Of a stretch of DNA of 64,000 bases, positions 10,051 through 40,941 are shown in pieces. Both the position numbers and the translations under genes were made by a program. The notes beneath the pieces are model-generated. The model was not told the DNA's origin, searched no databases, and saw only the letters and a program-made list of their open reading frames with translations. Source of the DNA: a virus; the IMG/VR virus record IMGVR_UViG_3300041955_000884, positions 43,198-107,197 of that record. One strand, written 5' to 3'. Numbering within the stretch: position 1 is the stretch's first letter; the number at the start of each line of letters is the position of its first letter.

Positions 10051-10166
10051 GGTCGGACGCTCCGAGATGAATGTGAGCGTCATTATAGCGCACAAGCCAT
10101 TGAAACGCCATCGCTTTCAGCCCTGCGCGGGCGCTGGACCGCTGCCGGTATCTGTCCGCAGCGCCA

Positions 10167-32410: not shown

Positions 32411-33376
32411 TCACGGTGCTCCCGTAACACTAACCGCCTTCGTGCCGAGGAGGCGCCAAGCGCCCTGCCAGAAGGCGCAGAGCTCGAGCAGGTAGTCTCC
32501 CGCTGGCAGCGCGAACACAGCCTCGCCAGCCGTGCCGTACGCCGCGGCGTAGCTGATGCCGCTCACCGGCCTTCCGTTCCAGTAGCCCTTCCCGGCGGCG
32601 TCGAGCACGTTGACGCATGACCAGTCCCCGCCGGTGTCCGTCCAGACGAGCATCAACAGGCCGAGGATAGCGGAGCCGACGGTTATGGTTCCGGTCGGGT
32701 AGCCGAGCGCGGCCCCCACGATGGGATCCAGCGTGGCGAACATCGCCTGAGCCATCAGGTCGTAGCCGGATTGATTCGGATGGATGCCACTCCAGACGTT
32801 GAACATCTCAGAGTAGGACAGATCGGCGTGCCATGCGGCGCCCATCGCCTCCGTCTCGGCGTTGAAGTCAACGAGCGAAAGGCCAGCCGCCTGAGCGGCG
32901 CCGCGAACCATGGCCGCTTTGTCGTCGATGACGGCCGAGGCCCACGACGCATCGACCGCGTTCGGCGTCTCCAGCACGAGGCGCTTGCCAGCGGCCTGCG
33001 TGAGACGGACGATCTCGGCCAGCGGCGCCTGTACAGCCGCCGGCTCGTCGTTCATGCCGAGCGACAGCAGGACGACCGAGGCTGGAGTCGCGGCGACATA
33101 TGCCAGCCAGGAGTTCGCCACGCCGCCGGTGCCATCGAGCCAGTTCTGGAAAGTCGTTCCCGATACCCCGTTGTTGTTGACGACCACCAGCGGCCCGTAT
33201 TTCGCCTGGAGAAGCGCCCCAAGACCAGCCGGTGCTGGCGTCGCCACGACCGAGGAAACCGTGCCGTCGGCGCCGGGGGCCGGACCCGTGCTGGCGCCGT
33301 CGAACGTCAGCCCGAAAACCGTGCTGTCGCCATTGACGTCAACGACGAGGGGACTCGATGCGCTAGATTCGGTCAC
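32411..33376 (-). CDS. SGNH/GDSL hydrolase
   Basis: GDST, GVSG, GMND and GIHPNQSGY blocks. Confidence 0.8.
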   Translation of the reverse strand: MTESSASSPLVVDVNGDSTVFGLTFDGASTGPAPGADGTVSSVVATPAPAGLGALLQAKYGPLVVVNNNGVSGTTFQNWLDGTGGVANSWLAYVAATPASVVLLSLGMNDEPAAVQAPLAEIVRLTQAAGKRLVLETPNAVDASWASAVIDDKAAMVRGAAQAAGLSLVDFNAETEAMGAAWHADLSYSEMFNVWSGIHPNQSGYDLMAQAMFATLDPIVGAALGYPTGTITVGSAILGLLMLVWTDTGGDWSCVNVLDAAGKGYWNGRPVSGISYAAAYGTAGEAVFALPAGDYLLELCAFWQGAWRLLGTKAVSVTGAP

Positions 33377-33978
33377 GGAGCCAACTCCACGTTGTGATAC
33401 AGCCACGAAGCAAAATCCGCGCGTGTCTCGCTGTCAAGGAACTCCAGCCCGGCCCTGAGCAGCTCCGCCGTCGTCGGCTGCCGCGGCGGCTTCAGCGGCC
33501 GCAGGGGGGTGCCCTTCTTGCCGGAGTAGTTCGCTGGCCGGTCACGCTTCTCGACGTTGCACCTCACGCAGCAGCTCAGGATGTTGTCCCACACCGTCTG
33601 GCCGCCAGCCGCCCGCGGGATAACGTGGTCAAACGTCAGATCCTCGCTCTGGAACCGCTCGCCGCAGTACTGGCAGCGGTAGCGGTCCCGGAGGAGGATG
33701 GAGCGGCGACAGAACTTCGGCGCCGCATTGATTGGCGCGTACGACCGGAGCGCCACCACCTTCGGCACATGAATCGTGGTCGACGGCGAGCGGAACACCT
33801 CCGGCCACTCGTCCACGACGGTCACCGTCTCCTTGAAGACGGCGCGGATGGCTTCCTCGGGGCCGATAAGCGAGAGCGGCCAGGTACTTAACGGCCGAAA
33901 GTCGCTGTTCAGCACGAGACAGCGGCGCGCGTGGCGGTCGCGTCTATCAGGCTCAGCAGTGGCGACGGCGGTGCTCAT
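33373..33978 (-). CDS. HNH endonuclease (McrA-like) directly after the tRNA array
   Basis: LVLNSDFRPL, RDRYRCQYCG, LTFDHVIPRAAGG, CVRCNVEK. Confidence 0.9.
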   Translation of the reverse strand: MSTAVATAEPDRRDRHARRCLVLNSDFRPLSTWPLSLIGPEEAIRAVFKETVTVVDEWPEVFRSPSTTIHVPKVVALRSYAPINAAPKFCRRSILLRDRYRCQYCGERFQSEDLTFDHVIPRAAGGQTVWDNILSCCVRCNVEKRDRPANYSGKKGTPLRPLKPPRQPTTAELLRAGLEFLDSETRADFASWLYHNVELAP

Positions 33979-33989
33979 GCGCGGCCTCA

Positions 33990-34006
33990 GCGGCGAATAC
34001 GTCCAC
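33990..34006. repeat. Downstream arm of the inverted repeat bracketing the tRNA array
   Basis: GCGGCGAATACGTCCAC, complementary to 39644..39660 (12-bp perfect core). Confidence 0.75.
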
Positions 34007-34018
34007 TATCGCACGGAA

Positions 34019-34093
34019 TGGTGCTCTCGGGCAAGAATCGAACTGCCGTTTACCGCTTACGAGGCGGTAGTCCTGCCACTGAACGACGAGAGC
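34019..34093 (-). tRNA. tRNA-Thr(CGT)
   Basis: Acceptor GCTCTCG/CGAGAGC, loop CTCGTAA, encoded CCA. Confidence 0.92.
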
Positions 34094-34096
34094 GTA

Positions 34097-34125
34097 TTGA
34101 GCCGGTTAACTGGCTGCGTTATACT
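34097..34125 (+). promoter_or_regulatory. Sigma70-like promoter for the antisense HNH gene (leaderless)
   Basis: TTGAGC-N17-TATACT, 6 nt before the ATG at 34132. Confidence 0.6.
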
Positions 34126-34131
34126 GCGCCT

Positions 34132-34575
34132 ATGCCCCACCGCACCAAAGAAGAAAATGTCGCTGGCGTCCTAGCATGGCGGCGCCGCGCGAAGCTGCGA
34201 CTTATCGAGGCGTTCGGTGGCGGCTGCGGCATATGCGGATATAACCGCTGCGCCGCTAACATGGCGTTCCATCATCTTGATCCGTCTCAGAAGGGCGTCG
34301 GATTTGGAAGCGCTCAGTCTCGCTCCTGGGCGAAAGTGATACACGAGGTCAGAAAGTGCGTGATGCTGTGCCACAACTGCCACGGCGAATATCATGCCGG
34401 CCTTATCACTGACCTTTCCGCTTGCCCGCGCTTCGATGAAACGTGCGCCACCTACAGCACCCGACCAACGAAAGGGAAGACGCGGAGAACTGGAGGATTG
34501 GGAGGGAATCGAACCCGTCCTATGACGCAGATTAAGAGCCTGCCGGCCTCACCAGAGTGCCAACCAATCCGCTAG
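34132..34575 (+). CDS. HNH endonuclease inserted antisense in the tRNA array
   Basis: GGGCGICGY...FHHLDP...CVMLCHNCHGEYH. Confidence 0.85.
   Translation: MPHRTKEENVAGVLAWRRRAKLRLIEAFGGGCGICGYNRCAANMAFHHLDPSQKGVGFGSAQSRSWAKVIHEVRKCVMLCHNCHGEYHAGLITDLSACPRFDETCATYSTRPTKGKTRRTGGLGGNRTRPMTQIKSLPASPECQPIR
34491..34570 (-). tRNA. tRNA-Lys(CTT)
   Basis: GGATTGG/CCAATCC, loop CTCTTAA, U73, CCA. Confidence 0.85.
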
Positions 34576-34652
34576 TGGTGCATGTCCCGAGATTCGAACT
34601 CGGCCTGTGCGGGATTTGAAGCCGCCGCCTCCTGCCTCTGGGCTAGACATGC
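34576..34652 (-). tRNA. tRNA-Leu(CAA), short variable loop
   Basis: GCATGTC/GACATGC, stem GCGGC/CCCGC, loop TTCAAAT, A73, CCA. Confidence 0.7.
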
Positions 34653-34656
34653 GAAC

Positions 34657-34728
34657 TGGCCTCGCCGCCCGGATTCGAACCGGGAAGCCCAACCTTCGGA
34701 GGGTCGGGTGCAGTCCATTGCCGGCGAG
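34657..34728 (-). tRNA. tRNA-Arg(CCG), atypical compact fold
   Basis: CTCGCCG/CGGCGAG, 7-bp anticodon stem, loop CTCCGAA, CCA. Confidence 0.8.
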
Positions 34729-34732
34729 AAAC

Positions 34733-34803
34733 TGGTGCCCCGTGCAGGGATTCAACCTGCCGTCTTTGGCTTAGAACGCCTAGGCCGTCGCAGCGGACGG
34801 GGC
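34733..34803 (-). tRNA. tRNA-Arg(TCT), atypical compact fold
   Basis: GCCCCGT/ACGGGGC, loop GTTCTAA, CCA. Confidence 0.75.
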
Positions 34804-34808
34804 GAGCA

Positions 34809-34881
34809 TGGACCTCCCGGGACGAATCGGACGCCCTCATCGAGTTTCGTAGACTCAAGTCCGCAATCCAGCGGCGGGAGG
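34809..34881 (-). tRNA. tRNA-Arg(ACG), atypical compact fold
   Basis: CCTCCCG/CGGGAGG, 6-bp anticodon stem, loop CTACGAA, CCA. Confidence 0.8.
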
Positions 34882-34885
34882 AATT

Positions 34886-34960
34886 TGGGGGCGCGTGCGG
34901 GGGTCGAACCCGCCTCTCTCGGGTGAAGGCCGAGGCATCTCGCCGGAAATGTAACGCGCC
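34886..34960 (-). tRNA. tRNA-Glu(TTC), C33
   Basis: GGCGCGT/ACGCGCC, loop CCTTCAC, CCA. Confidence 0.85.
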
Positions 34961-34965
34961 GAAGT

Positions 34966-35040
34966 TGGTGGAGCTGACCGAAGTCGAATCGGTGTTACGA
35001 GACTGCCAGCCTCGCGTCCTTGCCACTGAACGACAGCCCC
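34966..35040 (-). tRNA. tRNA-Ala(GGC)
   Basis: G3:U70 present, loop CTGGCAG, CCA. Confidence 0.92.
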
Positions 35041-35115
35041 GAAGCTGTGGTCGGCGTTTGATGCCTATATCCGCCGACACGCCCCATACATGGCAAGGGC
35101 GGCGCCTCGTCAAAC

Positions 35116-35190
35116 TGGTGAAGGGCGTTGGAATCGAACCAACCGTCTCCGCCATGTCAAGGCGGTGCTCATCCGATAAGCTGGCCCTCC
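35116..35190 (-). tRNA. tRNA-Val(GAC)
   Basis: GGAGGGC/GCCCTTC, loop TTGACAT, CCA. Confidence 0.92.
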
Positions 35191-35262
35191 GTACCTCGCC
35201 GTCGAATCGAACGACGGTATCCGCGGTGTGAACGCGGCGCCCTGCCATTGAGCGAGCGAGGC
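35191..35262 (-). tRNA. tRNA-Val(CAC), CCA not fully encoded
   Basis: GCCTCGC/GCGAGGT, loop TTCACAC; ends A-C and abuts the next tRNA. Confidence 0.88.
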
Positions 35263-35266
35263 AAAG

Positions 35267-35341
35267 TGGTCGGGGATGCAGGAATTGAACCTGCGTCGCC
35301 GCCTTCCAAGGGCGGAACCTGGGCCACTAGGCTAATCCCCG
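35267..35341 (-). tRNA. tRNA-Pro(TGG)
   Basis: C1:G72, A73, loop CTTGGAA, CCA. Confidence 0.9.
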
Positions 35342-35345
35342 TAGA

Positions 35346-35416
35346 TGGCGCCCCCGGCTGAAATCGAATCAGCATTCCTTGGCTTAGGAAGCCAGGGCCG
35401 CTCCATCGGCGGGGGC
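35346..35416 (-). tRNA. tRNA-Arg(CCT), atypical compact fold
   Basis: GCCCCCG/CGGGGGC, loop TTCCTAA, CCA. Confidence 0.8.
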
Positions 35417-35420
35417 AATC

Positions 35421-35498
35421 TGGTCAGCGTGCGGTGATTCGAACACCGGCTCTCGTGCGCCCGAGGCACGCGCTTTGGCCTGGCTAAGCTACACGCTG
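35421..35498 (-). tRNA. tRNA-Pro(CGG)
   Basis: CAGCGTG/CACGCTG, loop CTCGGGC, CCA. Confidence 0.92.
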
Positions 35499-35505
35499 TC
35501 GAAGC

Positions 35506-35581
35506 TGGCGCCCCAGACGGGTTCCGACCCCGCCAACATCGGCTTGACAAGCCGAGACCCCCGCCAGGGAGAATCTGGGGC
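35506..35581 (-). tRNA. tRNA-Asp(GTC)
   Basis: GCCCCAG/CTGGGGC, G73, loop TTGTCAA, T-loop GTCGGAA. Confidence 0.8.
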
Positions 35582-35585
35582 AATC

Positions 35586-35667
35586 TGGAGGACGGCGGAG
35601 GTGACGATCCCCTTGCGGCCGGATTAAAGGTCCGGTCCAGCGCCTCGCTGGTATACGCTCGCCGTCC
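35586..35667 (-). tRNA. tRNA-Lys(TTT), divergent (C33, enlarged D region)
   Basis: GGACGGC/GCCGTCC, stem CCGGA/TCCGG, loop CCTTTAA, T-loop ATCGTCA, CCA. Confidence 0.7.
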
Positions 35668-35672
35668 GAAAG

Positions 35673-35747
35673 TGGTTGCCGCACGCGGTACTGCCCCGCG
35701 AGCCTCTCGCTTATCGGGCGAGCGCACGACTTTCATGCTCTACGGCA
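35673..35747 (-). tRNA. tRNA-Ile(GAT), C33
   Basis: TGCCGTA/TGCGGCA, loop CCGATAA, T-loop GGCAGTA, CCA. Confidence 0.82.
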
Positions 35748-35748
35748 A

Positions 35749-35833
35749 TGGTGAGTTGGTGTGGTGCTGCCCCACGCGCCCGAAGGCGAAGGATTTACAG
35801 TCCTCCTGCCGGAGCTGCCGGCTTTACCAACCC
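35749..35833 (-). tRNA. tRNA-Tyr(GTA)
   Basis: Loop CTGTAAA, variable arm GCC-TTCG-GGC, T-loop GGCAGCA, CCA. Confidence 0.85.
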
Positions 35834-35839
35834 GTGAAC

Positions 35840-35910
35840 TGGAGCCGCGTCTCGGTGTTGCGCCGAGCCTCCGTCCATACCAAGGACGGGTGCAGACTGC
35901 TGCGCGCGGC
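35840..35910 (-). tRNA. tRNA-Thr(GGT), compact fold
   Basis: 6-bp stem CCGTCC/GGACGG, loop TTGGTAT, D arm GCAG-CAGT-CTGC, CCA. Confidence 0.78.
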
Positions 35911-35913
35911 AGA

Positions 35914-36001
35914 TGGTGGAAGGCCCCGAGCACGATTCGGACACCTTTCGGTGCGCACGGTTTAGCAGACCGGCCCCGCAACCTTACGGGCTGTGCCTTC
36001 C
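35914..36001 (-). tRNA. tRNA-Ser(GCT)
   Basis: GGAAGGC/GCCTTCC, loop CTGCTAA, long variable arm, CCA. Confidence 0.85.
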
Positions 36002-36007
36002 AGAAAG

Positions 36008-36097
36008 TGGCGGACGGCGGCTAGTGCTGCCCTGCAAACCCGTTGGGGTCTCATCGGTTTTCGAGGCCGAGCCGCAGACTGCTGCGGGTCACCGTCC
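36008..36097 (-). tRNA. tRNA-Ser(CGA), 8/4 fold
   Basis: 8-bp acceptor GGACGGTG/CGCCGTCC, loop CTCGAAA, long variable arm, G73, CCA. Confidence 0.82.
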
Positions 36098-36209
36098 ATG
36101 TGCGCTCCAGCGCACTGTATCGCGGCTAATGTGCTCTTGAGAGCCGATTTTGCGGGCGCCGCATTCGCTGCGGTCGTTCAAGACTGGAGGCGGAGGCCAG
36201 CCCCCATAG

Positions 36210-36297
36210 TGGCGGAGAGCGGGCGCGCACGATGCCCATGCCTTGCGGCACCAGCCGGGTTCAAACCGGCGGTCGGAACCTTCCGACTTCACTCTCC
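36210..36297 (-). tRNA. tRNA-Ser(TGA), 8/4 fold
   Basis: 8-bp acceptor GGAGAGTG/CGCTCTCC, loop TTTGAAC, long variable arm, G73, CCA. Confidence 0.85.
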
Positions 36298-36301
36298 GTA
36301 A

Positions 36302-36389
36302 TGGCGGGCGGCGGGCGCAGTCGAAGCCCTGGCCTTTCGGCCTCATCGCGCTTCCAACGCGAGCCGGCGACCCCGCCGGTTCACCGCCC
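36302..36389 (-). tRNA. tRNA-Ser(GGA), 8/4 fold
   Basis: 8-bp acceptor GGGCGGTG/CGCCGCCC, loop TTGGAAG, long variable arm, G73, CCA. Confidence 0.85.
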
Positions 36390-36393
36390 AAAC

Positions 36394-36478
36394 TGGTAGC
36401 CCACGAAGGAGTTGCACCCTCACGCCGCGATGGCACGAGTTCCTAAGACTCGCGTGTCTGCTGTTCCACCAGTGGGCC
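36394..36478 (-). tRNA. tRNA-Leu(TAG)
   Basis: Loop CTTAGGA, long variable arm, A73, CCA. Confidence 0.9.
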
Positions 36479-36483
36479 TAACT

Positions 36484-36567
36484 TGGTACGCCCGGGGAGA
36501 GTTGCACTCCCACGTCATGCGACACAACGCCCTCAACGTTGCGCGTCTGCTGTTCCGCCACGGGCGC
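36484..36567 (-). tRNA. tRNA-Leu(GAG)
   Basis: Loop TTGAGGG, long variable arm, A73, CCA. Confidence 0.9.
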
Positions 36568-36568
36568 T

Positions 36569-37078
36569 CTATTTCGGTGCTGGCCAAATGTCGGCCAGGG
36601 TCGGACGACGCTCGCCGAGGACGAGCGACAGCCTGGATTTCGAGTGCGCTGGCGCTAGGCGGTCGAGCCGTTGCGCAGGCTGGGGCACATTGGCCAACGT
36701 CGCCTCCGAGATCGGCTCGGCATATTGGCCAATCTTGTGCAGGCCCCAGGACGCCGCGACGTGGAATTCGGGCTTGCGGGAGCCAGACGGACCCGGCTTC
36801 GCCACTGCTCTGACGCACGCCACCGCGCCCCAGCAGTGGCCGCAGGCGGCGCGGAGGTTGTTGCAGTGCCCGCAGACGAGGTGGTGCATTCTCGTGCCCG
36901 TGGGATACTCGTAGCGCCTCGTGCGCGGCAGGATGTGGTCCCGCGTGGCGCTCCGCTTGGCGTGGCCCTCGGGCAGCATCGGGTCGCCGCACTGGGGGCA
37001 GCAGACGGTCTCGCCCATCGCCTTCGCGAGGTCGAACAGGAGCAGCTTCCTCTTCGTGAAGCCCTGCGGCGCGCTCAT
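36569..37078 (-). CDS. HNH-like endonuclease within the tRNA array
   Basis: CPQCG...ATRDHILPR...VCGHCNNLR; leaderless promoter TTGCCT-N16-TAGGCT upstream. Confidence 0.75.
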   Translation of the reverse strand: MSAPQGFTKRKLLLFDLAKAMGETVCCPQCGDPMLPEGHAKRSATRDHILPRTRRYEYPTGTRMHHLVCGHCNNLRAACGHCWGAVACVRAVAKPGPSGSRKPEFHVAASWGLHKIGQYAEPISEATLANVPQPAQRLDRLAPAHSKSRLSLVLGERRPTLADIWPAPK

Positions 37079-37116
37079 GGCGGAAGCCTACCACGCTCGG
37101 CGCCGGAGGCAAGATG

Positions 37117-37200
37117 TGGTGCCGGCGGCAGGCATCGAACCTGCACGCTGCGCGCGGCCCGGTTTAAGCGGGCTGGGTCTACCGATTCCCCCACGCCGGC
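37117..37200 (-). tRNA. tRNA-Leu(TAA)
   Basis: GCCGGCG/CGCCGGC, loop CTTAAAC, long variable arm, CCA. Confidence 0.9.
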
Positions 37201-37203
37201 GAT

Positions 37204-37278
37204 TGGTGGCGCTAGGGGGATTTGAACCCGCCCTTTCCCGGTTGAGAGCCGAGCGGCCTGCCAATAGCCGATAGCGCC
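37204..37278 (-). tRNA. tRNA-Glu(CTC)
   Basis: GGCGCTA/TAGCGCC, loop CTCTCAA, CCA. Confidence 0.9.
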
Positions 37279-37282
37279 GAAA

Positions 37283-37357
37283 TGGAAGCGGGTGCCCGAC
37301 TCGAACGAGCGTGAAGGAGGTCAAAGCTCCCCGTCCTGGCCGCTGAACGAACCCGCC
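37283..37357 (-). tRNA. tRNA-Gln(TTG)
   Basis: G1:U72 weak first pair, loop CTTTGAC, CCA. Confidence 0.88.
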
Positions 37358-37362
37358 GCGAT

Positions 37363-37467
37363 TGGTAGGCGATGACGGTGCCGACCCGTCTCGAACGCCG
37401 CCAGTGCGTAAGGGACCGTCGCCCCCTGGGCCGTCGCCCGCGTTCTGCCCAGCCGGGGCAATCGCCT
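37363..37467 (-). ncRNA. tRNA-like RNA with the anticodon loop replaced by a 41-nt branched domain
   Basis: Acceptor AGGCGAT/ATCGCCT-A-CCA, D arm and T arm intact, stem GAACGC/GCGTTC closing three hairpins. Confidence 0.75.
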
Positions 37468-37505
37468 GCCGAGTTTCTAGCACGTCACATCCGATACCGC
37501 AATAG

Positions 37506-37579
37506 TGGAAGCCGACCAAGGTGTCGAGCCTTGCCCGACGAGCTTCAGAGGCTCGCGTGCCCAGCCGGGGCGATCGGCC
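37506..37579 (-). tRNA. tRNA-Gln(CTG), compact fold
   Basis: GGCCGAT/GTCGGCT, 1-nt linker, loop CTCTGAA, CCA. Confidence 0.8.
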
Positions 37580-37582
37580 GAA

Positions 37583-37661
37583 TGGTGCTCCTGGCCGCGA
37601 TTCGAACGGGCGACCCCCGGGATACAAAGCCGGTGCTCTGGCCAGACTGAGCTACAGGAGC
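37583..37661 (-). tRNA. tRNA-Thr(TGT)
   Basis: GCTCCTG/CAGGAGC, canonical D arm, loop TTTGTAT, CCA. Confidence 0.9.
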
Positions 37662-37662
37662 T

Positions 37663-37739
37663 TGGGGTGACATGCCGGTACCGCCCCGGCCCAAACTGGG
37701 CTCACAACCCAGCGCAATCGCTTGCCTGCCCATGTCACC
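37663..37739 (-). tRNA. tRNA-His(GTG) with G-1:C73
   Basis: G-GTGACAT/ATGTCAC-C-CCA, loop TTGTGAG. Confidence 0.88.
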
Positions 37740-37751
37740 ATACGCAATCCA

Positions 37752-38130
37752 TCCCGTCGCATCTATGCTCGCCTCGGTGTTACCCGTGGCTAGCCGTATC
37801 GCACGGCGAACGGGAGCCGGGGCTACCGTCTGTTTCAACGGTGTCGCCGGAGAGGTTTCGAGCCGGCATCGCTATGCTACGGCGGCATCGAAGACGGCTT
37901 GCCGCCGGCGGAGGGGTTAATCCCGCGCATCACCACCCTGGGTCGGGCTCCGCAATCCCCTGATGACTTAGCCGCTTCGCCGCCGGTTCCATGCCCAGCG
38001 CCGCTCGAAAGCTCCCTGCGGGCTAGCCTCGGCGCGCATCCGAAGCCAAGCTGGGCCAGCCTTAGAACCACCGCAGCGCTGGCCCGTCGCCCGCGTGGAA
38101 GGCTTCGCGTCTGTCCGCGATGCCGCAGGA
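37752..38130 (-). ncRNA. Candidate ~380-nt structured RNA between tRNA-Cys and tRNA-His
   Basis: Ends pair (TCCTG-CG-GCATC / GATGC-GA-CGGGA); many hairpins; no credible ORF. Confidence 0.55.
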
Positions 38131-38133
38131 AGG

Positions 38134-38209
38134 TGGAGAAGCGCCACAGAGTCGAACTGCGTGATGCGGGGTTGCAATCCGCCACCCAAGGCCGTCGGGT
38201 TCGCGCTTC
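38134..38209 (-). tRNA. tRNA-Cys(GCA)
   Basis: U73, loop TTGCAAC, CCA. Confidence 0.88.
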
Positions 38210-38214
38210 AATCT

Positions 38215-38288
38215 TGGCAGGGGCGTGAGGAATTGGACCCCATCTAGCTGGGTTGGAGCCAGCCGTGCTGCCGTAACACTTCGCCCCC
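38215..38288 (-). tRNA. tRNA-Trp(CCA)
   Basis: G73, loop CTCCAAC, CCA. Confidence 0.88.
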
Positions 38289-38292
38289 AAGT

Positions 38293-38367
38293 TGGCTCCA
38301 GAGGCAGGACTTGAACCTGCAACCTCACGGTTAACGGCCGTTTGCTCAGCCATTGAGCTACTCTGGA
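38293..38367 (-). tRNA. tRNA-Asn(GTT), C33
   Basis: TCCAGAG/CTCTGGA, G73, loop CCGTTAA, CCA. Confidence 0.92.
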
Positions 38368-38486
38368 AAACTCGTCTGGCGCTCGGCCCTCTCGGGCCAG
38401 ACTTTCCGGGCTACCCACCAGCGCGTTGCCATGGCTCGCTGGCCTCTATCCGTTATGGACTCGGGGTGACCGAGTCACGCCATGCT

Positions 38487-38562
38487 TGGAGCGGGATGCC
38501 GGGGACGATCCGAGCTTCACTGGTTTGGAAGACCAGCACAGTTACCGAACTGCAAATCCCGC
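38487..38562 (-). tRNA. tRNA-Gly(TCC)
   Basis: GCGGGAT/ATCCCGC, U73, loop CTTCCAA, CCA. Confidence 0.87.
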
Positions 38563-39137
38563 GAAATGGTGCCAGCGCCTGGTTTCGCGCCAGGGTCTTC
38601 GCTTTTTCGGAGCGACGCTTCCACTAGGTTAGCTTCGCTGGCCATTGGCAGGGAAGTCCACGCCTTGCCGAGCTTGATGCGGCTTATCATGTCCTCCGTC
38701 ACGCGAAAACTTGTTGCTATCGAACGGCCAGTTCGGCCAGATGCCAGGAAGCGGCGAATCTCATGCACATCACGCTCCGACAGCTTAGCGTTTCCATTTG
38801 ACGCCCCCACGGAGGGCGGCAGGTTGCCCTTCGGGCGACGCCCCTTCCTGGCACTGTCCCGCATATTTTCGGCGTTCGTTCCGAGCCACAGGTGACGCGG
38901 ATTGCAGCAGGGCGGGTTGTCGCAAGAATGGCAGACGCAAAGGCCGCAGGTCGGTCCCTTCGCTATCTCGTAAGCGACGGCATGTGCCCGCCGAGAGCGG
39001 AGCGTTGGCCTGCTTTGCTTGAACCGACCGTACCCGTCATCGTCAATCTGGCGAGTCCACGGCCAGCACTCGTCAGGCCCGCGGATGTCAACCTTTGACC
39101 AAAAGCGCGCAATCGCCTTATCGTCGTGAATAGCCAT
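38517..39137 (-). CDS. HNH homing endonuclease with C-terminal HTH; the frame runs through tRNA-Phe
   Basis: RFWSKVD...ECWPW...CHSCDNPPCCNPRHLWLGTNAENMRD; SD GAGGAG. Confidence 0.88.
   Translation of the reverse strand: MAIHDDKAIARFWSKVDIRGPDECWPWTRQIDDDGYGRFKQSRPTLRSRRAHAVAYEIAKGPTCGLCVCHSCDNPPCCNPRHLWLGTNAENMRDSARKGRRPKGNLPPSVGASNGNAKLSERDVHEIRRFLASGRTGRSIATSFRVTEDMISRIKLGKAWTSLPMASEANLVEASLRKSEDPGAKPGAGTISRDLQFGNCAGLPNQ
38567..38642 (-). tRNA. tRNA-Phe(GAA), C33
   Basis: GCCAGCG/CGCTGGC, loop CCGAAAA, T-loop CGCGAAA, CCA. Confidence 0.87.
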
Positions 39138-39235
39138 ATCGGCCGTCTCCTCGGCTGGCGTGGTCAGGACCGCCGGGGCGTTCACAGCGCTCCGGCGGCC
39201 CGAGATTTCTAGTCGAAATGTCCAGCCGAAGCAAT

Positions 39236-39307
39236 TGGTTGCAGGGGAGCGAGTCGCACGCTCTGTGGAAAATTTATGAGACTTTCTGGCCTCTGAGGCT
39301 CCCTGCA
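39236..39307 (-). tRNA. tRNA-Met(CAT), compact fold
   Basis: TGCAGGG/CCCTGCA, 1-nt linker, 6-bp anticodon stem, loop CTCATAA, CCA. Confidence 0.75.
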
Positions 39308-39312
39308 ATAAC

Positions 39313-39386
39313 TGGTGGGCGCGCGACGAATCGGACGCCGGTCAAGCCTTTATGAGAGGCTCGCTCTTCCATTGAGCTACACGCCC
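39313..39386 (-). tRNA. tRNA with CAT anticodon (probably Ile2/lysidine; Met not excluded)
   Basis: GGGCGTG/CGCGCCC, loop CTCATAA, no initiator features, CCA. Confidence 0.82.
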
Positions 39387-39399
39387 GTCGCGTGGAATT

Positions 39400-39474
39400 T
39401 GGAGCTGACGCCCGGTACCGCCCCGGGTGATACTGATTGGCAACCAGTCCCGCAACCTTTCGCGGACCGCCAGC
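39400..39474 (-). tRNA. tRNA-Gly(GCC)
   Basis: U73, loop TTGCCAA, T-loop GGCGGTA, CCA. Confidence 0.83.
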
Positions 39475-39485
39475 TAAGACATGAA

Positions 39486-39531
39486 CGAATCTCGCCCGAC
39501 CTGGCGACGACACGGCCAGGTCGGGCATTCG
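39486..39531. other. Strong hairpin spacer between tRNA-Ala and tRNA-Gly
   Basis: Perfect 12-bp stem GCCCGACCTGGC/GCCAGGTCGGGC plus CGAAT/ATTCG. Confidence 0.6.
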
Positions 39532-39536
39532 TGAAA

Positions 39537-39611
39537 TGGTGGAGGCGCGGATAGTCGAAATCCGAGACAGCAATCTTGCAAGGATAGCCCGCTGGTCCGC
39601 AGCTCGCCCCC
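39537..39611 (-). tRNA. tRNA-Ala(TGC), compact fold; first tRNA of the array
   Basis: G3:U70, 1-nt linker, loop CTTGCAA, CCA. Confidence 0.83.
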
Positions 39612-39643
39612 GTCGGGCCGCTTGGCAGGCGGCCCGTAGTCAT

Positions 39644-39660
39644 GTGGACGTATTCACAGC
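39644..39660. repeat. Upstream arm of the inverted repeat bracketing the tRNA array
   Basis: GTGGACGTATTCACAGC, complementary to 33990..34006. Confidence 0.75.
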
Positions 39661-39663
39661 CTC

Positions 39664-39701
39664 AAAGAACAAAAGCCCCCGAGAGTTTCCTCCGGGGGCT
39701 T
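39664..39701 (-). terminator. Intrinsic terminator (attenuator) in front of the tRNA array
   Basis: AAGCCCCCG-GAG-GAAA-CTC-T-CGGGGGCTT followed by TTGTTCTTT. Confidence 0.88.
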
Positions 39702-39757
39702 GGTCGTGTACGCTTCCACAGTCAAAGCCAGAAGCGGTTACAAGGCCAAGCCCTCGG
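39692..39757 (-). promoter_or_regulatory. Antiterminator hairpin, mutually exclusive with the terminator
   Basis: CCGAGGGCTTGG (39757..39746) pairs 11/12 with CCAAGCCCCCGG (39703..39692); inner TGTA/TACA and CGCTTC/GAAGCG. Confidence 0.75.
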
Positions 39758-39860
39758 CGTTCGGCTGATGCGTCGCGGACTTCCCGCCCAAGCTACGCCG
39801 CACGGTGGGTTTTATGCCGCGTCGTTCGGCGTAGCCAGGAAAGGAGGTCCAGAGTGACAT
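39738..39860 (-). CDS. Putative 40-aa codon-sampling leader peptide MSLWTSFPGYAERRGIKPTVRRSLGGKSATHQPNAEGLAL
   Basis: ATG 7 nt after the -10 box; 31 distinct codons in 40; stop lies inside the antiterminator 5' arm. Confidence 0.75.
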   Translation of the reverse strand: MSLWTSFPGYAERRGIKPTVRRSLGGKSATHQPNAEGLAL

Positions 39861-39867
39861 CGCTGCC

Positions 39868-39897
39868 CTTATGCGGGCGGCGGCGGGGGCGTGTCAA
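39868..39897 (-). promoter_or_regulatory. Sigma70-like promoter of the tRNA operon
   Basis: TTGACA-N18-CATAAG. Confidence 0.65.
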
Positions 39898-40342
39898 GCC
39901 CTGAATCGCACCGGAGCGGCGCGTTCGCGATTTCGAGGAGGACGGTGGCGTGGCATGCTTGGTCCAGGCGGCACCAGCAGGCGAGGTCCTTGCCGCGAAG
40001 TTCGCGGCGCACATCATCAATGGTTGTCGCGTCCATGCTGGGAATTTTTCCTTTTGGCCATGGGAGCGCAACAGGAATCCACGCGCCTTCCTTGGCGAGC
40101 ATCGAGCGGAACGCAGCAACCGCCAGTTGGGCGTCCATTGGAAAGCGCTGCCCATTCTGCATGCGATCAGAATGAACGACGAACGGATTGCCCCACTTCG
40201 ATCCGCGTCCGACGTAGACGGCTCCCTCTGGCATCCGCCAGCCCTTCGTCCGGCGCCGCTGGATTCGCCGTGGAGCGAAGGCGCAGACGCGGGCCTCACG
40301 GCAGCGCGCTGGCCCTGGGCAGTAGTCGCATGCCTCGGTCAT
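39869..40342 (-). CDS. DUF4326-like protein
   Basis: RIQRRRTKGWRMPEGAVYVGRGSKWGNPF...LRGKDLACWC...CHA. Confidence 0.8.
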   Translation of the reverse strand: MTEACDYCPGPARCREARVCAFAPRRIQRRRTKGWRMPEGAVYVGRGSKWGNPFVVHSDRMQNGQRFPMDAQLAVAAFRSMLAKEGAWIPVALPWPKGKIPSMDATTIDDVRRELRGKDLACWCRLDQACHATVLLEIANAPLRCDSGLDTPPPPPA

Positions 40343-40941
40343 CAATCCGCCGCCTGGGCGAACAGCGGCGCGTCGCGACGCCGGAACACCGTGACGACCC
40401 GGAAGCGGTGGTTCGTGCTCTTCACCATGCCGATGACGGCTTCCATCTCGAAGGCGTCCTTGCGATACATCGGTAGCACTTGGTCGAGCCAGACGATGTG
40501 CGTTCCTGGCGCCAGCCGCCCCAAGGCGCTCATCACCGCATTTCGCTTCACCATCGTCGTCCGGTAGCGCTCGGCGTCCTCGACGGAGTAGGGCGGGTCG
40601 GCCAGAACAAGGTCGTAGCGCTCCAGTGGCACGCGCTCCAGCGTCTGGGCGTCGTCCACGAACGTCGGCGCCAGCTCCGCGTTCACGTCCACGGTATCGC
40701 CGGGCATCGCGGCAAGGTCCACGCGGCCAGAGAACAGGTGCAGGAGGCGCTCCTTGTCGGGGAACAGAGCCTTGATTCGTCGAAGATATCCGGCCGGATA
40801 GCCGCCGTAATAGGCCGACTTCACGCGGTAGTCGTTCCCCATAATCCAGGTGCCGACGACGCGGCCGTCCTCGCCGATAAACAGGCTCCGCGGAAAGCCC
40901 GTGGCGCGGACGTAGTTGTCGATGCGCTCCTGCCAGTTCAT
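40342..40941 (-). CDS. Adenine methyltransferase-like protein
   Basis: YYGGYP, LHLFSG, VLADPPY. Confidence 0.7.
   Translation of the reverse strand: MNWQERIDNYVRATGFPRSLFIGEDGRVVGTWIMGNDYRVKSAYYGGYPAGYLRRIKALFPDKERLLHLFSGRVDLAAMPGDTVDVNAELAPTFVDDAQTLERVPLERYDLVLADPPYSVEDAERYRTTMVKRNAVMSALGRLAPGTHIVWLDQVLPMYRKDAFEMEAVIGMVKSTNHRFRVVTVFRRRDAPLFAQAAD

What the first reader, a model, noticed from the sequence alone, without database searches (positions are those of the whole stretch)
34019..39611. 39-tRNA array covering all 20 amino acids in a podovirus-type genome
All 39 genes are co-oriented, mostly a few nucleotides apart, and 38 encode CCA. Identity elements are often retained (Ala G3:U70, Cys/Gly U73, His G-1:C73, Pro C1:G72, long Ser/Leu/Tyr arms). 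No initiator tRNA and no standard Val(TAC), Pro(GGG) or Leu(CAG) were found. Near-complete sets are typical of large myo- and siphoviruses rather than BPP-1-like podoviruses. Many of these genes may be missed or scored as pseudo by standard scanners.
Basis: seen in the sequence. Interest (0 to 1): 0.7.

Follow-up and report, generated by a model that had tools for sequence, protein, structure and literature searches.

The report
Near-complete tRNA set in large podovirus
An uncultured 107-kb phage with a podovirus-type head carries 39 transfer-RNA genes in a row, enough to read about 97% of its own codons; about a quarter of them use a conserved, non-standard tRNA shape that standard gene finders miss.

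Summary
On the minus strand of 34019-39611 there are 39 co-oriented cloverleaf genes for all 20 amino acids (38 distinct anticodons). 38 encode CCA, and 28 of 38 spacers are 10 nt or less.

Support for the count:
- ARAGORN default finds 25 and Rfam 13-15.
- A covariance model built only from other phage arrays finds 34 at E<0.01.
- The other five are long-arm Ser and Tyr genes, supported by my own cloverleaf scan and by hits below threshold to Rfam's long-arm tRNA-Sec model.

No initiator tRNA is present.

The host genome is a 107-kb phage with an epsilon15/BPP-1-type portal and capsid. Its relatives, with estimated genomes of 44-60 kb, carry 0-1 tRNA.

About 10 members have G55 T loops, usually with an A18-G19 D loop. 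Across 633 tRNAs from 49 other viral arrays, position 55 covaries with the D loop (Fisher p about 1e-108). A syntenic metagenome contig shows 25 compensatory stem changes in four orthologues. The odd genes are therefore conserved RNAs rather than decaying copies.

This scan had already noted the A18:G55 elbow on other genomes. I reached it independently here.

Best reading: a polycistronic elongator-tRNA kit that makes phage translation largely independent of the host tRNA pool. Expression and charging are untested.

The parts
39537..39611 (-). tRNA-Ala(TGC), G3:U70, A73, CCA
   Evidence: ARAGORN; R1 13.7 bits, E 0.006; arms
39400..39474 (-). tRNA-Gly(GCC), U73, T loop GGCGGTA (G55)
   Evidence: Own cloverleaf score 25.5 with no mismatch; R1 37 bits, E 1e-10; missed by ARAGORN and Rfam
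39313..39386 (-). tRNA-Met(CAT), elongator type (G1:C72)
   Evidence: ARAGORN; Rfam 56.3 bits; R1 61.3 bits
39236..39307 (-). Second CAT tRNA (Met, or Ile2 if lysidine-modified); short D arm; T loop TGCGACT
   Evidence: ARAGORN; R1 26.9 bits; U1:A72 and no GGG/CCC in the anticodon stem, so not an initiator
38567..38642 (-). tRNA-Phe(GAA), C33, T loop CGCGAAA
   Evidence: Rfam 45 bits in sensitive mode only; R1 51.4 bits; own scan; missed by ARAGORN
38487..38562 (-). tRNA-Gly(TCC), U73, T loop ATCGTCC
   Evidence: ARAGORN; R1 34.5 bits
38293..38367 (-). tRNA-Asn(GTT), G73, C33
   Evidence: ARAGORN; Rfam 59.4 bits; R1 58.2 bits
38215..38288 (-). tRNA-Trp(CCA), G73, T loop TCCAATT (C55)
   Evidence: ARAGORN; Rfam 43.3 bits; R1 48 bits
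38134..38209 (-). tRNA-Cys(GCA), U73
   Evidence: Own scan score 25; R1 33.3 bits, E 2e-9; missed by ARAGORN and Rfam
37663..37739 (-). tRNA-His(GTG) with encoded G-1 pairing C73; A18-G19 D loop; T loop GGCGGTA
   Evidence: ARAGORN; R1 35.2 bits; G-1 read
37583..37661 (-). tRNA-Thr(TGT), T stem with one bulged base
   Evidence: ARAGORN; Rfam 47.8 bits; R1 46.7 bits
37506..37579 (-). tRNA-Gln(CTG)
   Evidence: ARAGORN; R1 23 bits, E 5e-6
37363..37467 (-). 105-nt tRNA-like RNA. It has a 7-bp acceptor stem, a D-like hairpin shared with Gln(CTG), a T arm with loop GTCGGCA and an ACCA end. In place of an anticodon loop it has three small hairpins. It is not counted among the 39.
   Evidence: Fold (-55.8 kcal/mol); weak R1 hit at 37366-37439, E 0.034
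37283..37357 (-). tRNA-Gln(TTG)
   Evidence: ARAGORN; Rfam 43.1 bits; R1 46.9 bits
37204..37278 (-). tRNA-Glu(CTC)
   Evidence: ARAGORN; Rfam 51.5 bits; R1 57.6 bits
37117..37200 (-). tRNA-Leu(TAA), long variable arm, A73
   Evidence: ARAGORN; Rfam 49.3 bits; R1 29.7 bits
36569..37078 (-). 169-aa Cys/His-rich ORF inside the array, with no family match. I read it as HNH-like from its Cys/His motifs only.
   Evidence: No Pfam or PHROG hit. A 76% identical stretch lies at the matching position in the closest relative, G001.
36484..36567 (-). tRNA-Leu(GAG), long arm, A18-G19 D loop, T loop TGCAACT (G55)
   Evidence: ARAGORN; R1 31.8 bits
36394..36478 (-). tRNA-Leu(TAG), long arm, A18-G19 D loop, T loop TGCAACT (G55)
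   Evidence: ARAGORN; R1 31.6 bits
36302..36389 (-). tRNA-Ser(GGA), long arm, G73
   Evidence: Own scan score 23. The class I model R1 does not fit long-arm tRNAs (E 2.9).
36210..36297 (-). tRNA-Ser(TGA), long arm, G73
   Evidence: Own scan score 23; R1 E 0.016
36008..36097 (-). tRNA-Ser(CGA), long arm, G73, defective T stem; the weakest member
   Evidence: Rfam tRNA-Sec model 30 bits, E 0.007; R1 E 0.17; sequence and fold
35914..36001 (-). tRNA-Ser(GCT), long arm, T loop ATCGTGC
   Evidence: Rfam tRNA-Sec model 34.1 bits, E 6e-4; own scan 20.5; relaxed ARAGORN finds it but names it wrongly
35840..35910 (-). tRNA-Thr(GGT), U73, very small D arm, T loop CGCAACA
   Evidence: R1 26.6 bits, E 3e-7. 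Its syntenic counterpart in L179 is a canonical Thr(GGT).
35749..35833 (-). tRNA-Tyr(GTA), long arm, T loop GGCAGCA
   Evidence: Own scan score 21; 5 compensatory pair changes against the L179 orthologue, loops conserved
35673..35747 (-). tRNA-Ile(GAT), C32-C33, A18-G19 D loop, T loop GGCAGTA
   Evidence: Own scan 24.5; R1 52.2 bits; 7 compensatory pair changes and 0 of 18 compared unpaired positions differing against L179
35586..35667 (-). tRNA-Lys(TTT), C33, enlarged D region, T loop ATCGTCA
   Evidence: R1 18.3 bits, E 2e-4; fold; a syntenic but differently built Lys(TTT) in L179
35506..35581 (-). tRNA-Asp(GTC), G73, T loop GTCGGAA
   Evidence: Relaxed ARAGORN; R1 35.7 bits; 95% identical over 82 nt to a tRNA of an unrelated viral contig, G006
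35421..35498 (-). tRNA-Pro(CGG), C1:G72, A73
   Evidence: ARAGORN; Rfam 59.2 bits; R1 55 bits; 8 compensatory changes against L179 Pro(TGG)
35346..35416 (-). tRNA-Arg(CCT) with a 3-nt D loop
   Evidence: ARAGORN; R1 25.4 bits; 5 compensatory changes and the same mini D loop in L179
35267..35341 (-). tRNA-Pro(TGG), C1:G72, A73
   Evidence: ARAGORN; Rfam 62.1 bits; R1 56.5 bits
35191..35262 (-). tRNA-Val(CAC); the only member without an encoded CCA; abuts the next gene
   Evidence: ARAGORN; Rfam 50.9 bits; R1 62.6 bits; 3' end read
35116..35190 (-). tRNA-Val(GAC)
   Evidence: ARAGORN; Rfam 48.7 bits; R1 53.8 bits
34966..35040 (-). tRNA-Ala(GGC), G3:U70
   Evidence: ARAGORN; Rfam 51.3 bits; R1 45.9 bits
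34886..34960 (-). tRNA-Glu(TTC), C33
   Evidence: ARAGORN; R1 43.4 bits; own scan 26.5
34809..34881 (-). tRNA-Arg(ACG), small D loop, T loop TCCGATT
   Evidence: Relaxed ARAGORN; R1 15.9 bits, E 0.001
34733..34803 (-). tRNA-Arg(TCT), 3-nt D loop, G32
   Evidence: Own scan 23; R1 25.5 bits, E 8e-7
34657..34731 (-). tRNA-Arg(CCG)
   Evidence: ARAGORN; R1 25.8 bits
34576..34652 (-). tRNA-Leu(CAA) with a short (5-nt) variable region and a Leu-type 3-bp D stem with 11-nt D loop; A73
   Evidence: ARAGORN; Rfam 40.6 bits; R1 44.2 bits. The same short-arm Leu design occurs in L073 and L074.
34491..34570 (-). tRNA-Lys(CTT)
   Evidence: ARAGORN; R1 18.6 bits, E 1e-4
34019..34093 (-). tRNA-Thr(CGT), last member
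   Evidence: ARAGORN; Rfam 48.9 bits; R1 56.7 bits
38650..39137 (-). HNH homing-endonuclease gene (162 aa) inside the array
   Evidence: Pfam HNH_3, 3e-7; phrog_1872 and phrog_826, 5e-28
34132..34575 (+). HNH endonuclease gene on the opposite strand, inside the array. Its 3' end overlaps Lys(CTT) in antisense.
   Evidence: phrog_2255 and phrog_3106, 1e-21; likely start read
33373..33978 (-). HNH endonuclease gene starting 40 nt downstream of the last tRNA
   Evidence: Pfam HNH_5, 1.5e-15; phrog_16726, 2e-32
39664..39701 (-). GC-rich hairpin followed by a T tract (looks like an intrinsic terminator), about 50 nt upstream of the first tRNA
   Evidence: Fold. The consensus scan did not list it.
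39475..39536 (-). Very stable hairpin (-31 kcal/mol) between Ala(TGC) and Gly(GCC); function unknown
   Evidence: Fold
37740..38133 (-). 394-nt spacer between Cys and His with no assignable feature
   Evidence: No Rfam match; fold z-score -1.2; no convincing ORF

Best explanation
This is a phage-encoded, near-complete set of elongator tRNAs. It consists of 39 co-oriented genes embedded in a long minus-strand gene block.

Inferred mechanism, none of it shown here:
- The genes are transcribed as one or a few polycistronic precursors.
- Host RNase P cuts at each 5' end. That leaves 3-6 nt trailers, which exonucleases trim back to the encoded CCA.
- Val(CAC), which lacks an encoded CCA, would need the CCA-adding enzyme.
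- Host aminoacyl-tRNA synthetases charge the products, which the retained identity elements would allow.

Function: with 38 anticodons the set can read 57 of 61 sense codons, which is 97.5% of the phage's own codons. Only the initiator and a few decoders must come from the host. Elongation on phage mRNAs would therefore be largely independent of the host tRNA pool. The most likely benefit is to keep translation running when host tRNAs are depleted or cleaved during infection. Codon supply and host range would be secondary benefits.

About a quarter of the members use an alternative elbow, with G55 in the T loop and usually A18 in place of G18. Others carry C33 anticodon loops or 3-nt D loops. 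These features are conserved, so they belong to the design and are not decay.

The homing-endonuclease genes inside and beside the array probably help it to spread and persist.
For: - 39 cloverleafs lie on one strand and none on the other. A model built from unrelated arrays finds 34 of them at E<0.01.
- CCA is encoded in 38, and the median spacer is 4-5 nt.
- Identity elements match the anticodon for Ala, Gly, Cys, His, Pro, Asp, Asn, Trp, Leu, Tyr and most Ser.
- The set covers 97.5% of the phage's codons, including the most frequent ones.
- In four orthologue pairs against the syntenic contig L179, 25 of 84 stem pairs changed on both sides and kept pairing. Only 5 were unpaired in one copy, and only 11 of 94 compared unpaired positions differed.
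- Position 55 of the T loop covaries with the D-loop GG/AG motif in 633 tRNAs of 49 viral arrays: U55 with GG in 348 of 380, G55 with AG in 216 of 241, p about 1e-108.
- The whole record is phage: terminase, portal, capsid, tail, DnaB and RecT families. The array sits where the closest relative has a single tRNA-Met and a homologue of the 169-aa ORF.
- Published context: phage tRNAs proposed or shown to counter tRNA-targeting defences (PMC10264068, PMC11464382, PMC11555353); homing endonucleases beside tRNA arrays (PMC8421152).
Against: - There are no expression, processing or charging data.
- The host is unknown, so neither codon compensation nor a defence link can be tested.
- No sigma-70-like promoter was found on the minus strand, and a terminator-like hairpin sits just upstream.
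- Several members are irregular: Ser(CGA) in its T stem, Lys(TTT) in its D region, Thr(GGT), and the second CAT tRNA. The L179 counterpart of Thr(GGT) is canonical, so the window's copy may be decaying.
- Four spacers of 75-394 nt have no assigned function.
Confidence: 0.62

Rival explanations
1. The tRNAs are functional, but their purpose is codon supply or translation efficiency, and perhaps a wider host range. They would top up the host pool for a large GC-rich genome with many late proteins. There would be no link to defence or to loss of host tRNAs.
For: This is the classical explanation for phage tRNAs (reviewed in PMC6409571 and PMC10264068). The set includes decoders for codons that are rare in this genome, such as TTA, AGA, AAA and TCA.
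Against: The set also covers the commonest codons (GCC, GGC, CGC, CTC, GAC) and nearly the whole code, which is more than compensation needs. Conserved oddities in the anticodon loop, such as C32-C33 in Ile in both the window and L179, are not predicted by codon supply alone. The host codon usage is unknown, so this rival cannot be excluded.
Confidence: 0.22
2. The array is mostly selfish or decaying cargo. It would have been brought in and kept by homing endonucleases, with only a minority of genes still producing working tRNAs.
For: - At least three HNH genes and one HNH-like ORF lie in or beside the array.
- Standard tools reject 14-26 of the 39.
- Several members are irregular.
- The closest relative manages with one tRNA.
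- In the Anabaena L-array, 3 of 26 genes behave as pseudogenes (PMC8421152).
Against: Compensatory evolution and conserved loops in the four orthologue pairs tested, including two variant-elbow genes and one with a mini D loop. Covariation of the elbow across the other arrays. Retained CCA and identity elements. No duplicate anticodons apart from CAT.
Confidence: 0.12
3. The array is not part of this phage. It would be an assembly chimera, or a bacterial tRNA island (L-array) joined to phage DNA.
For: - The record is 2-2.5 times the estimated size of its relatives.
- The 14-kb region around the array has no counterpart in G001 apart from the 169-aa ORF and one 53-nt DNA match.
- L-arrays of similar size exist in bacteria (PMC8421152).
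Against: Phage genes flank the array on both sides on the same strand: a methyltransferase and the portal upstream, HNH, an exonuclease and the capsid downstream. Gene order matches G001 across the insertion point. GC content is uniform. The two ends of the record share a repeat unit of at least 90 nt, which fits a contig that closes on itself.
Confidence: 0.04

Closest known systems
Large tRNA gene clusters of tailed phages (e.g. mycobacteriophage cluster C1 and T5-like phages; survey by Morgado & Vicente 2019, PMC6409571)
   Same: Dense, co-oriented tRNA genes (at least 15 genes at 2/kb or more) in a dsDNA tailed phage, interspersed with homing endonucleases and covering many or all isotypes.
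   Different: In that survey clusters held 15-37 genes, only 8 had all 20 isotypes, and Podoviridae carried at most 23 tRNAs and made up about 4% of cluster-bearing genomes. Here there are 39 genes in a genome with an epsilon15/BPP-1-type head module, and about a quarter are non-canonical in conserved ways.
Bacterial L-arrays, e.g. the 26-gene trn operon of Anabaena PCC 7120 (Santamaria-Gomez et al. 2021, PMC8421152)
   Same: A long, horizontally mobile array of up to 43 tRNA genes, associated with a homing endonuclease and proposed to sustain translation under stress. Most members there are expressed and charged.
   Different: Those arrays lie on bacterial chromosomes or plasmids and are induced by translational stress. 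This one sits inside a phage gene block, and its regulation is unknown.
epsilon15 / BPP-1-like podoviruses (about 39-45 kb)
   Same: Homologous portal (about 34% identity), with matching capsid, tail and internal-virion protein families.
   Different: The genome is about 2.5 times larger. It has a giant DarB-like gene, many homing endonucleases and a 39-tRNA array. The related viral contigs examined (66-92% portal identity) carry 0-1 tRNA.
Phage tRNA sets with the A18:G55 'rewired elbow', noted earlier by this scan on other genomes (e1-5382721, e1-5801597, e1-5382747, e1-5691493, e1-5968887)
   Same: The same covarying replacement of the G18/U55 contact by A18/G55, with G19 and C56 kept. I found it independently here and confirmed it on 49 viral arrays.
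   Different: In those phages most or all tRNAs carry the swap. Here only about 10 of 39 do, alongside canonical members, in a GC-rich podovirus-type genome rather than a jumbo or T4-like phage.

Membership tests
tRNA (Rfam RF00005) | Covariance-model score at or above the gathering score of 29 bits | tested here: inconclusive
   13 of 39 pass with default filters and 15 with sensitive filters. The others fall below, mostly those with a non-canonical T loop, D loop or long arm.
tRNA (general cloverleaf definition) | 7-bp acceptor stem, D arm, 5-bp anticodon stem with a 7-nt loop, 5-bp T stem with a 7-nt loop, discriminator and CCA | tested here: met
   29 pass my scan and 25 pass ARAGORN. The union is 39, with at most 2 stem mismatches in 37 of them. 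The exceptions are Ser(CGA) and Lys(TTT).
Viral tRNA gene cluster (Morgado & Vicente 2019) | At least 15 tRNA genes at a density of at least 2 per kb in a virus genome | tested here: met
   39 genes in 5,593 nt, or 7 per kb. The record is viral throughout.
Complete isotype set | At least one tRNA for each of the 20 amino acids | tested here: met
   Anticodon list. Amino-acid identity is inferred from the anticodon only; charging was not tested.
Bacterial initiator tRNA-fMet | C1xA72 mismatch and three consecutive G:C pairs at the bottom of the anticodon stem | tested here: not met
   The CAT tRNA at 39313-39386 has G1:C72 and anticodon stem AGCCT/AGGCT. The one at 39236-39307 has U1:A72 and an A/U-rich stem.
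A18:G55 rewired-elbow tRNAs | G at T-loop position 55 together with A18-G19 (no GG) in the D loop, with C56 kept | tested here: met
   Clear in His, Ile, Leu(GAG) and Leu(TAG). Tyr fits, though its D loop also holds a GG. G55 with an ambiguous or atypical D loop occurs in Gly(GCC), Phe, the second CAT tRNA, Ser(CGA) and Thr(GGT). The covariation is confirmed on 633 tRNAs from other arrays.
epsilon15/BPP-1-like podovirus | Homologous portal, capsid and tail module, and no sheath or tape-measure gene | tested here: met
   Portal hits to epsilon15, phiV10 and other podoviruses at about 34% identity, with Bordetella phages among the hits. Families phrog_212, 376, 394, 418 and 684 match. No sheath or tape-measure family appeared among the ORFs scanned.
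epsilon15/BPP-1-like podovirus | Genome of about 39-45 kb | tested here: not met
   The record is 107,197 bp with a CheckV completeness estimate of 94%.
epsilon15/BPP-1-like podovirus | Short non-contractile tail seen on virions | not testable with these tools
   This is a metagenome-derived record with no isolate.
Bacterial L-array | Located on a bacterial chromosome or plasmid | tested here: not met
   Phage genes flank the array on both sides, and gene order matches a related viral contig.

The most novel reading that the evidence does not exclude
The array may be a decoding kit that works without most host tRNAs, with its non-standard members built that way on purpose. The A18:G55 elbow, C33 anticodon loops, 3-nt D loops and short-arm Leu would still be accepted by RNase P, the synthetases, EF-Tu and the ribosome. 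They would, however, escape host nucleases or quality-control enzymes that recognise canonical tRNA features. Because canonical and rewired tRNAs coexist in one phage, the same host machinery would have to accept both. That would make this genome a natural test bed for an apparently undescribed second tRNA architecture.
Probability: 0.3. Interest if true: 0.8.

Novelty: new variant of a known kind. Interest (0 to 1): 0.55.

Why it matters
Large tRNA clusters in phages are known, so the array as such is not new. Three things stand out.

First, the size and completeness of the set. It has 39 genes covering all 20 amino acids and 57 of 61 sense codons, in a phage with a podovirus-type head module. 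Related contigs, with estimated genomes of 44-60 kb, carry 0-1 tRNA. This shows how far a small-phage lineage can grow by taking in accessory cargo.

Second, a quarter to a third of the genes depart from the textbook tRNA consensus: G55/A18 elbows, C33, 3-nt D loops, and a Leu without a long arm. These departures are conserved and covary, so standard annotation undercounts phage tRNAs. ARAGORN finds 25 of 39 here and Rfam 13-15.

Third, if these variants work in translation, they loosen rules long treated as near-universal for tRNA. They would also offer parts for orthogonal translation systems, and a possible route by which phages evade tRNA-targeting defences.

Tried and rejected
- RNase P RNA split around the Asn-Trp-Cys genes. 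I considered this because of a GGAAAGTC-like motif at about 38400. I rejected it because the motif belongs to a local hairpin, and Rfam gives no RNase P or other hit even on the isolated region.
- A structured RNA or small gene in the 394-nt spacer at 37740-38133. There is no Rfam match, the fold z-score is -1.2 and there is no credible ORF.
- N4-like phage. I suspected this from a 3,631-aa ORF just outside the window. Pfam shows methylase and helicase domains (DarB-like) and no virion RNA polymerase family.
- Duplication of tRNA-Thr(CGT) as an attachment site. The second Thr(CGT), at genome position 27028, is only about 64% identical and lies on the other strand.
- Searches for a homologous array through neighbouring proteins. 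The methyltransferase has many relatives but no arrays nearby. The 169-aa ORF and the GDSL lipase gave no pattern matches. Portal relatives carry 0-1 tRNA. An Ile-specific DNA pattern found nothing in the viral contigs.
- Host inference through prophage relatives of the portal in bacterial genomes: no hit.
- No named phage in GenBank is close to the window or to the comparison arrays.

Full report
**1. Observation**

ARAGORN with default settings finds 25 tRNA genes in the window. All lie on the minus strand between 34019 and 39611. Rfam's tRNA model finds 13 at its gathering score. On the region alone, with sensitive filters, it finds 15, plus five matches below threshold to the long-arm tRNA-Sec model. 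Relaxed ARAGORN adds Arg(ACG) and Asp(GTC), and picks up a Ser gene under the wrong name.

I wrote a plain cloverleaf scan that looks for acceptor, D, anticodon and T stems in the standard order. It gives 29 hits on the minus strand and none on the plus strand of the same 5.9 kb. A stricter version gives 22 hits in the array and none anywhere else in the 107-kb genome on either strand.

Reading the remaining gaps by eye and re-folding them brings the total to 39. The anticodons are:
- Ala TGC, GGC
- Arg ACG, CCG, TCT, CCT
- Asn GTT; Asp GTC; Cys GCA
- Gln TTG, CTG; Glu TTC, CTC
- Gly GCC, TCC; His GTG; Ile GAT
- Leu TAA, CAA, TAG, GAG
- Lys TTT, CTT; CAT twice; Phe GAA
- Pro TGG, CGG
- Ser GGA, TGA, CGA, GCT
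- Thr TGT, CGT, GGT
- Trp CCA; Tyr GTA; Val GAC, CAC

Thirty-eight of the genes end in an encoded CCA. Val(CAC) does not, and runs straight into Val(GAC). Of the 38 spacers, 28 are 10 nt or shorter, typically 3-6 nt.

**2. Independent statistical support**

To avoid circular reasoning I built a covariance model (R1) from 140 tRNAs taken only from other viral contigs. I ran it over 33000-40500 with filters off. Thirty-four of the 39 score E<0.01, and all of these are on the minus strand.

The other five are the four Ser genes and Tyr. Their long variable arms do not fit a class I model. Four of the five reach cloverleaf scores of 20.5-23 in my scan, and Ser(GCT) and Ser(CGA) have Rfam tRNA-Sec-model hits (E 6e-4 and 0.007).

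The weakest members are these:
- Ser(CGA): its T stem pairs only if one base is bulged.
- Lys(TTT): it has an enlarged D region.
- Thr(GGT): it has a tiny D arm.
- Ala(TGC): it reaches only 13.7 bits with R1.

**3.

The arms printed confirm the following:
- G3:U70 in both Ala genes.
- U73 in Cys and both Gly genes.
- An encoded G-1 opposite C73 in His.
- C1:G72 with A73 in both Pro genes.
- G73 in Asp, Asn, Trp and three of the Ser genes.
- A73 in all four Leu genes and in Tyr, Phe, Val, Ile and Met.

Ser, Tyr and three of the Leu genes have long variable arms. Leu(CAA) has a 5-nt variable region but keeps the Leu-type 3-bp D stem and 11-nt D loop. The same short-arm Leu design recurs in other viral arrays.

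Neither CAT tRNA has the initiator hallmarks. One has G1:C72 and the other U1:A72, and neither has a GGG/CCC anticodon stem. The second CAT tRNA could be a lysidine-dependent Ile decoder, but this cannot be told from sequence. Val(TAC), Pro(GGG) and Leu(CAG) are indeed absent.

**4. Genome context**

The window is the right-hand 64 kb of a 107,197-bp IMG/VR virus record, with a CheckV completeness estimate of 94%. The two ends of the record share a tandem-repeat unit of at least 90 nt. This fits a contig that closes on itself.

The record is phage throughout:
- terminase, portal, protease, major capsid, tail and internal-virion families;
- a tailspike, a DnaB helicase and RecT;
- an SLT-domain protein and a 3,631-aa protein with methylase and helicase domains, DarB-like.

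The portal's best named relatives are epsilon15, phiV10, Cobetia and Pelagibacter podophages and similar phages, at about 34% identity. Bordetella phages are among the hits. No sheath or tape-measure family appeared among the ORFs I scanned. 'Podovirus-type' is therefore a fair inference for the head and tail module. Morphology itself cannot be tested here.

The nearest viral contigs have 89-92% portal identity. One of them, G001, is a 26-kb fragment that CheckV puts at 43% complete, which implies a genome of about 60 kb. It has the same gene order as the window from capsid to portal. In place of the array it holds a single, unrelated tRNA-Met and a 76% identical copy of the 169-aa ORF found inside the array. 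Contigs with 66-67% portal identity come from genomes estimated at about 44 kb and hold no tRNA.

The array, with about 14 kb around it, is therefore a lineage-specific gain in a variable region. Endonuclease genes are frequent in this genome. I saw HNH-family genes at three places in or next to the array, the Cys/His-rich ORF without a family match, two endonuclease VII/HNH-like genes inside the structural module, and one near the DnaB gene.

**5. Why scanners miss so many: a conserved alternative design**

Ten members have G at T-loop position 55. Their T loops are GGCGGTA, GGCAGTA, GGCAGCA, TGCAACT, TGCGACT, CGCGAAA and CGCAACA, instead of the usual TTCRANY.

I used the adjacent Tyr and Ile T arms as a two-block DNA pattern and found other viral contigs with arrays that carry the same loops. 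A more degenerate pattern returned 68 loci. Forty-nine of these hold arrays, with 633 cloverleafs in total, always on one strand only.

Across these 633 tRNAs, the results were:
- U55 goes with the canonical GG (G18-G19) in the D loop in 348 of 380 cases.
- G55 goes with AG and no GG in 216 of 241 cases.
- The Fisher test gives p of about 1e-108.
- C56 is kept in the common loop classes.
- Positions 54 and 58 appear mainly as U..A, A..U or G..G.

The search pattern biases how often G55 appears. It does not bias what the D loop looks like, and my scan does not score either loop. Related sequences are not independent, so the p value overstates the number of separate events. Even so, the swap occurs in about 40 anticodon families and in 44 of the 49 arrays.

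After I had found this, a look-up showed that this scan had already noted the same A18:G55 'rewired elbow' on several other genomes. My result agrees with those notes. It adds a GC-rich, podovirus-type case in which only a minority of members carry the swap. I found no description of it in the papers I could search. That library is incomplete.

**6. Direct evidence that the odd genes are under selection**

A 1,665-nt groundwater metagenome contig (L179, GC 0.59) has a matching gene order: Thr(GGT)-Tyr-Ile-Lys(TTT), then an HNH-type Cys/His-rich ORF (read from the sequence only), then Gly(GCC)-Pro-Arg(CCT). It is 77-79% identical to the window over the aligned segments (Tyr-Ile and Pro-Arg).

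I compared four orthologue pairs, which together have 84 stem pairs:
- 48 pairs are identical.
- 25 changed on both sides and still pair.
- 6 changed on one side and still pair.
- 5 are unpaired in one copy.
- Only 11 of 94 compared unpaired positions differ.

For Ile, 7 pairs changed in a compensatory way, while all 18 compared unpaired positions stayed identical. These include the C32-C33 anticodon loop and the GGCAGTA T loop. Arg(CCT) keeps its 3-nt D loop in both copies. This is the pattern expected of working structured RNAs, not of pseudogenes.

In contrast, L179's Thr(GGT) is canonical while the window's copy is not, so that gene may be degenerating. In addition, the window's Asp tRNA (T loop GTCGGAA) is 95% identical to one in an otherwise unrelated viral contig that has at least 22 tRNAs. 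This suggests exchange of single tRNA genes between arrays.

**7. What the set can do**

I counted codons in my own rough set of predicted phage genes of 100 aa or more (24,320 codons). Under simple wobble rules the 38 anticodons read 57 of 61 sense codons, which is 97.5% of all codons.
- ATA is missing unless the second CAT tRNA is lysidine-modified.
- GTA is missing.
- CCC and CCT are missing by simple wobble, but a modified U34 in Pro(TGG) commonly reads them.

The set includes decoders for the commonest codons as well as for the rare ones. This fits replacement of the host pool better than topping up rare codons.

Five members have C33 in place of the near-universal U33: Phe, Asn, Ile, Glu(TTC) and Lys(TTT). 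C33 also occurs in 37 of the 633 tRNAs from other arrays. Published work proposes that phage tRNAs carry anticodon-loop changes that make them insensitive to host anticodon nucleases (PMC10264068). Other papers, seen here as abstracts only, report that single phage tRNAs neutralise PARIS or retron defences (PMC11464382, PMC11555353). That link is an inference here and was not tested.

**8. Mechanism: shown and inferred**

Shown:
- the genes, their cloverleaf structures, the encoded CCA ends and the identity elements;
- selection on structure in four orthologue pairs, and the elbow covariation across other arrays;
- the phage context.

Inferred from textbook bacterial tRNA biology:
- co-transcription of the genes;
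- separation of the precursor by RNase P;
- exonucleolytic trimming to the encoded CCA;
- CCA addition for Val(CAC);
- charging by host synthetases.

No sigma-70-like promoter was found on the minus strand of the region. A hairpin followed by a T tract lies about 50 nt upstream of the first gene. Another first-reader note interprets this hairpin as an attenuator. I confirmed only that the hairpin exists.

**9. Unexplained items**

- A 105-nt tRNA-like RNA at 37363-37467. It has an acceptor stem, a T arm and an ACCA end, but three small hairpins where the anticodon loop should be. Its 5' part resembles Gln(CTG).
- Spacers of 394, 119, 112 and 75 nt with no assignable feature.
- A very stable hairpin between the first two genes.

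**10. Verdict**

As an array it is a new, unusually large and complete member of a known kind. The conserved non-canonical members make it a new variant. That aspect has already been seen by this scan on other DNA, and expression and aminoacylation remain untested.

Noticed in passing
window 37363-37467 (-): A 105-nt tRNA-like RNA. It has a 7-bp acceptor stem, a T arm and an ACCA end, but no anticodon loop; three small hairpins, two of them with GACG tetraloops, take its place. Its 5' part resembles the neighbouring Gln(CTG).
   Followed up: partly
window 39664-39701 (-): A GC-rich hairpin followed by TTTTGTTCTTT, about 50 nt upstream of the first tRNA. Another first-reader note (e1-6045351) reads it as an attenuator with a leader peptide. 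I confirmed only the hairpin.
   Followed up: partly
window 9370-10095 (-), 11801-12448 (-); genome 3555-4691 (-): Further endonuclease VII/HNH-type genes sit inside the structural module and beside the DnaB gene. The genome is heavily colonised by endonuclease genes of this kind.
   Followed up: no
genome 30893-41788 (-), just left of the window: A 3,631-aa ORF with Eco57I/N6 methylase and ResIII/helicase domains (DarB-like). It lies next to an SLT-domain protein and a phrog_684 virion protein.
   Followed up: partly
genome 27028-27101 (+), outside the window: A lone, separate tRNA-Thr(CGT), only about 64% identical to the array's Thr(CGT). Earlier notes describe tRNA-like RNAs next to it.
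   Followed up: no
genome 1-113 and 107108-107197: Both ends of the record lie in the same tandem repeat, and the last 90 nt match positions 24-113. The contig probably closes on itself, although IMG/VR lists it as linear.
   Followed up: partly
L129 and L127 (IMG/VR contigs): In these arrays almost every tRNA has a G55-type T loop (25 of 27 and 15 of 17). Several Leu tRNAs in L073, L074 and L129 lack the long variable arm.
   Followed up: partly
window 37583-37661, 36302-36389, 36210-36297, 36008-36097 (-): Thr(TGT) and three of the Ser tRNAs share a T stem that pairs fully only if one base on the 3' strand, after the second pair, is bulged. This is a recurrent feature rather than scattered damage.
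   Followed up: no
window 37740-38133 (-): A 394-nt spacer between Cys and His with no ORF, no Rfam match and no unusual folding energy.
   Followed up: yes
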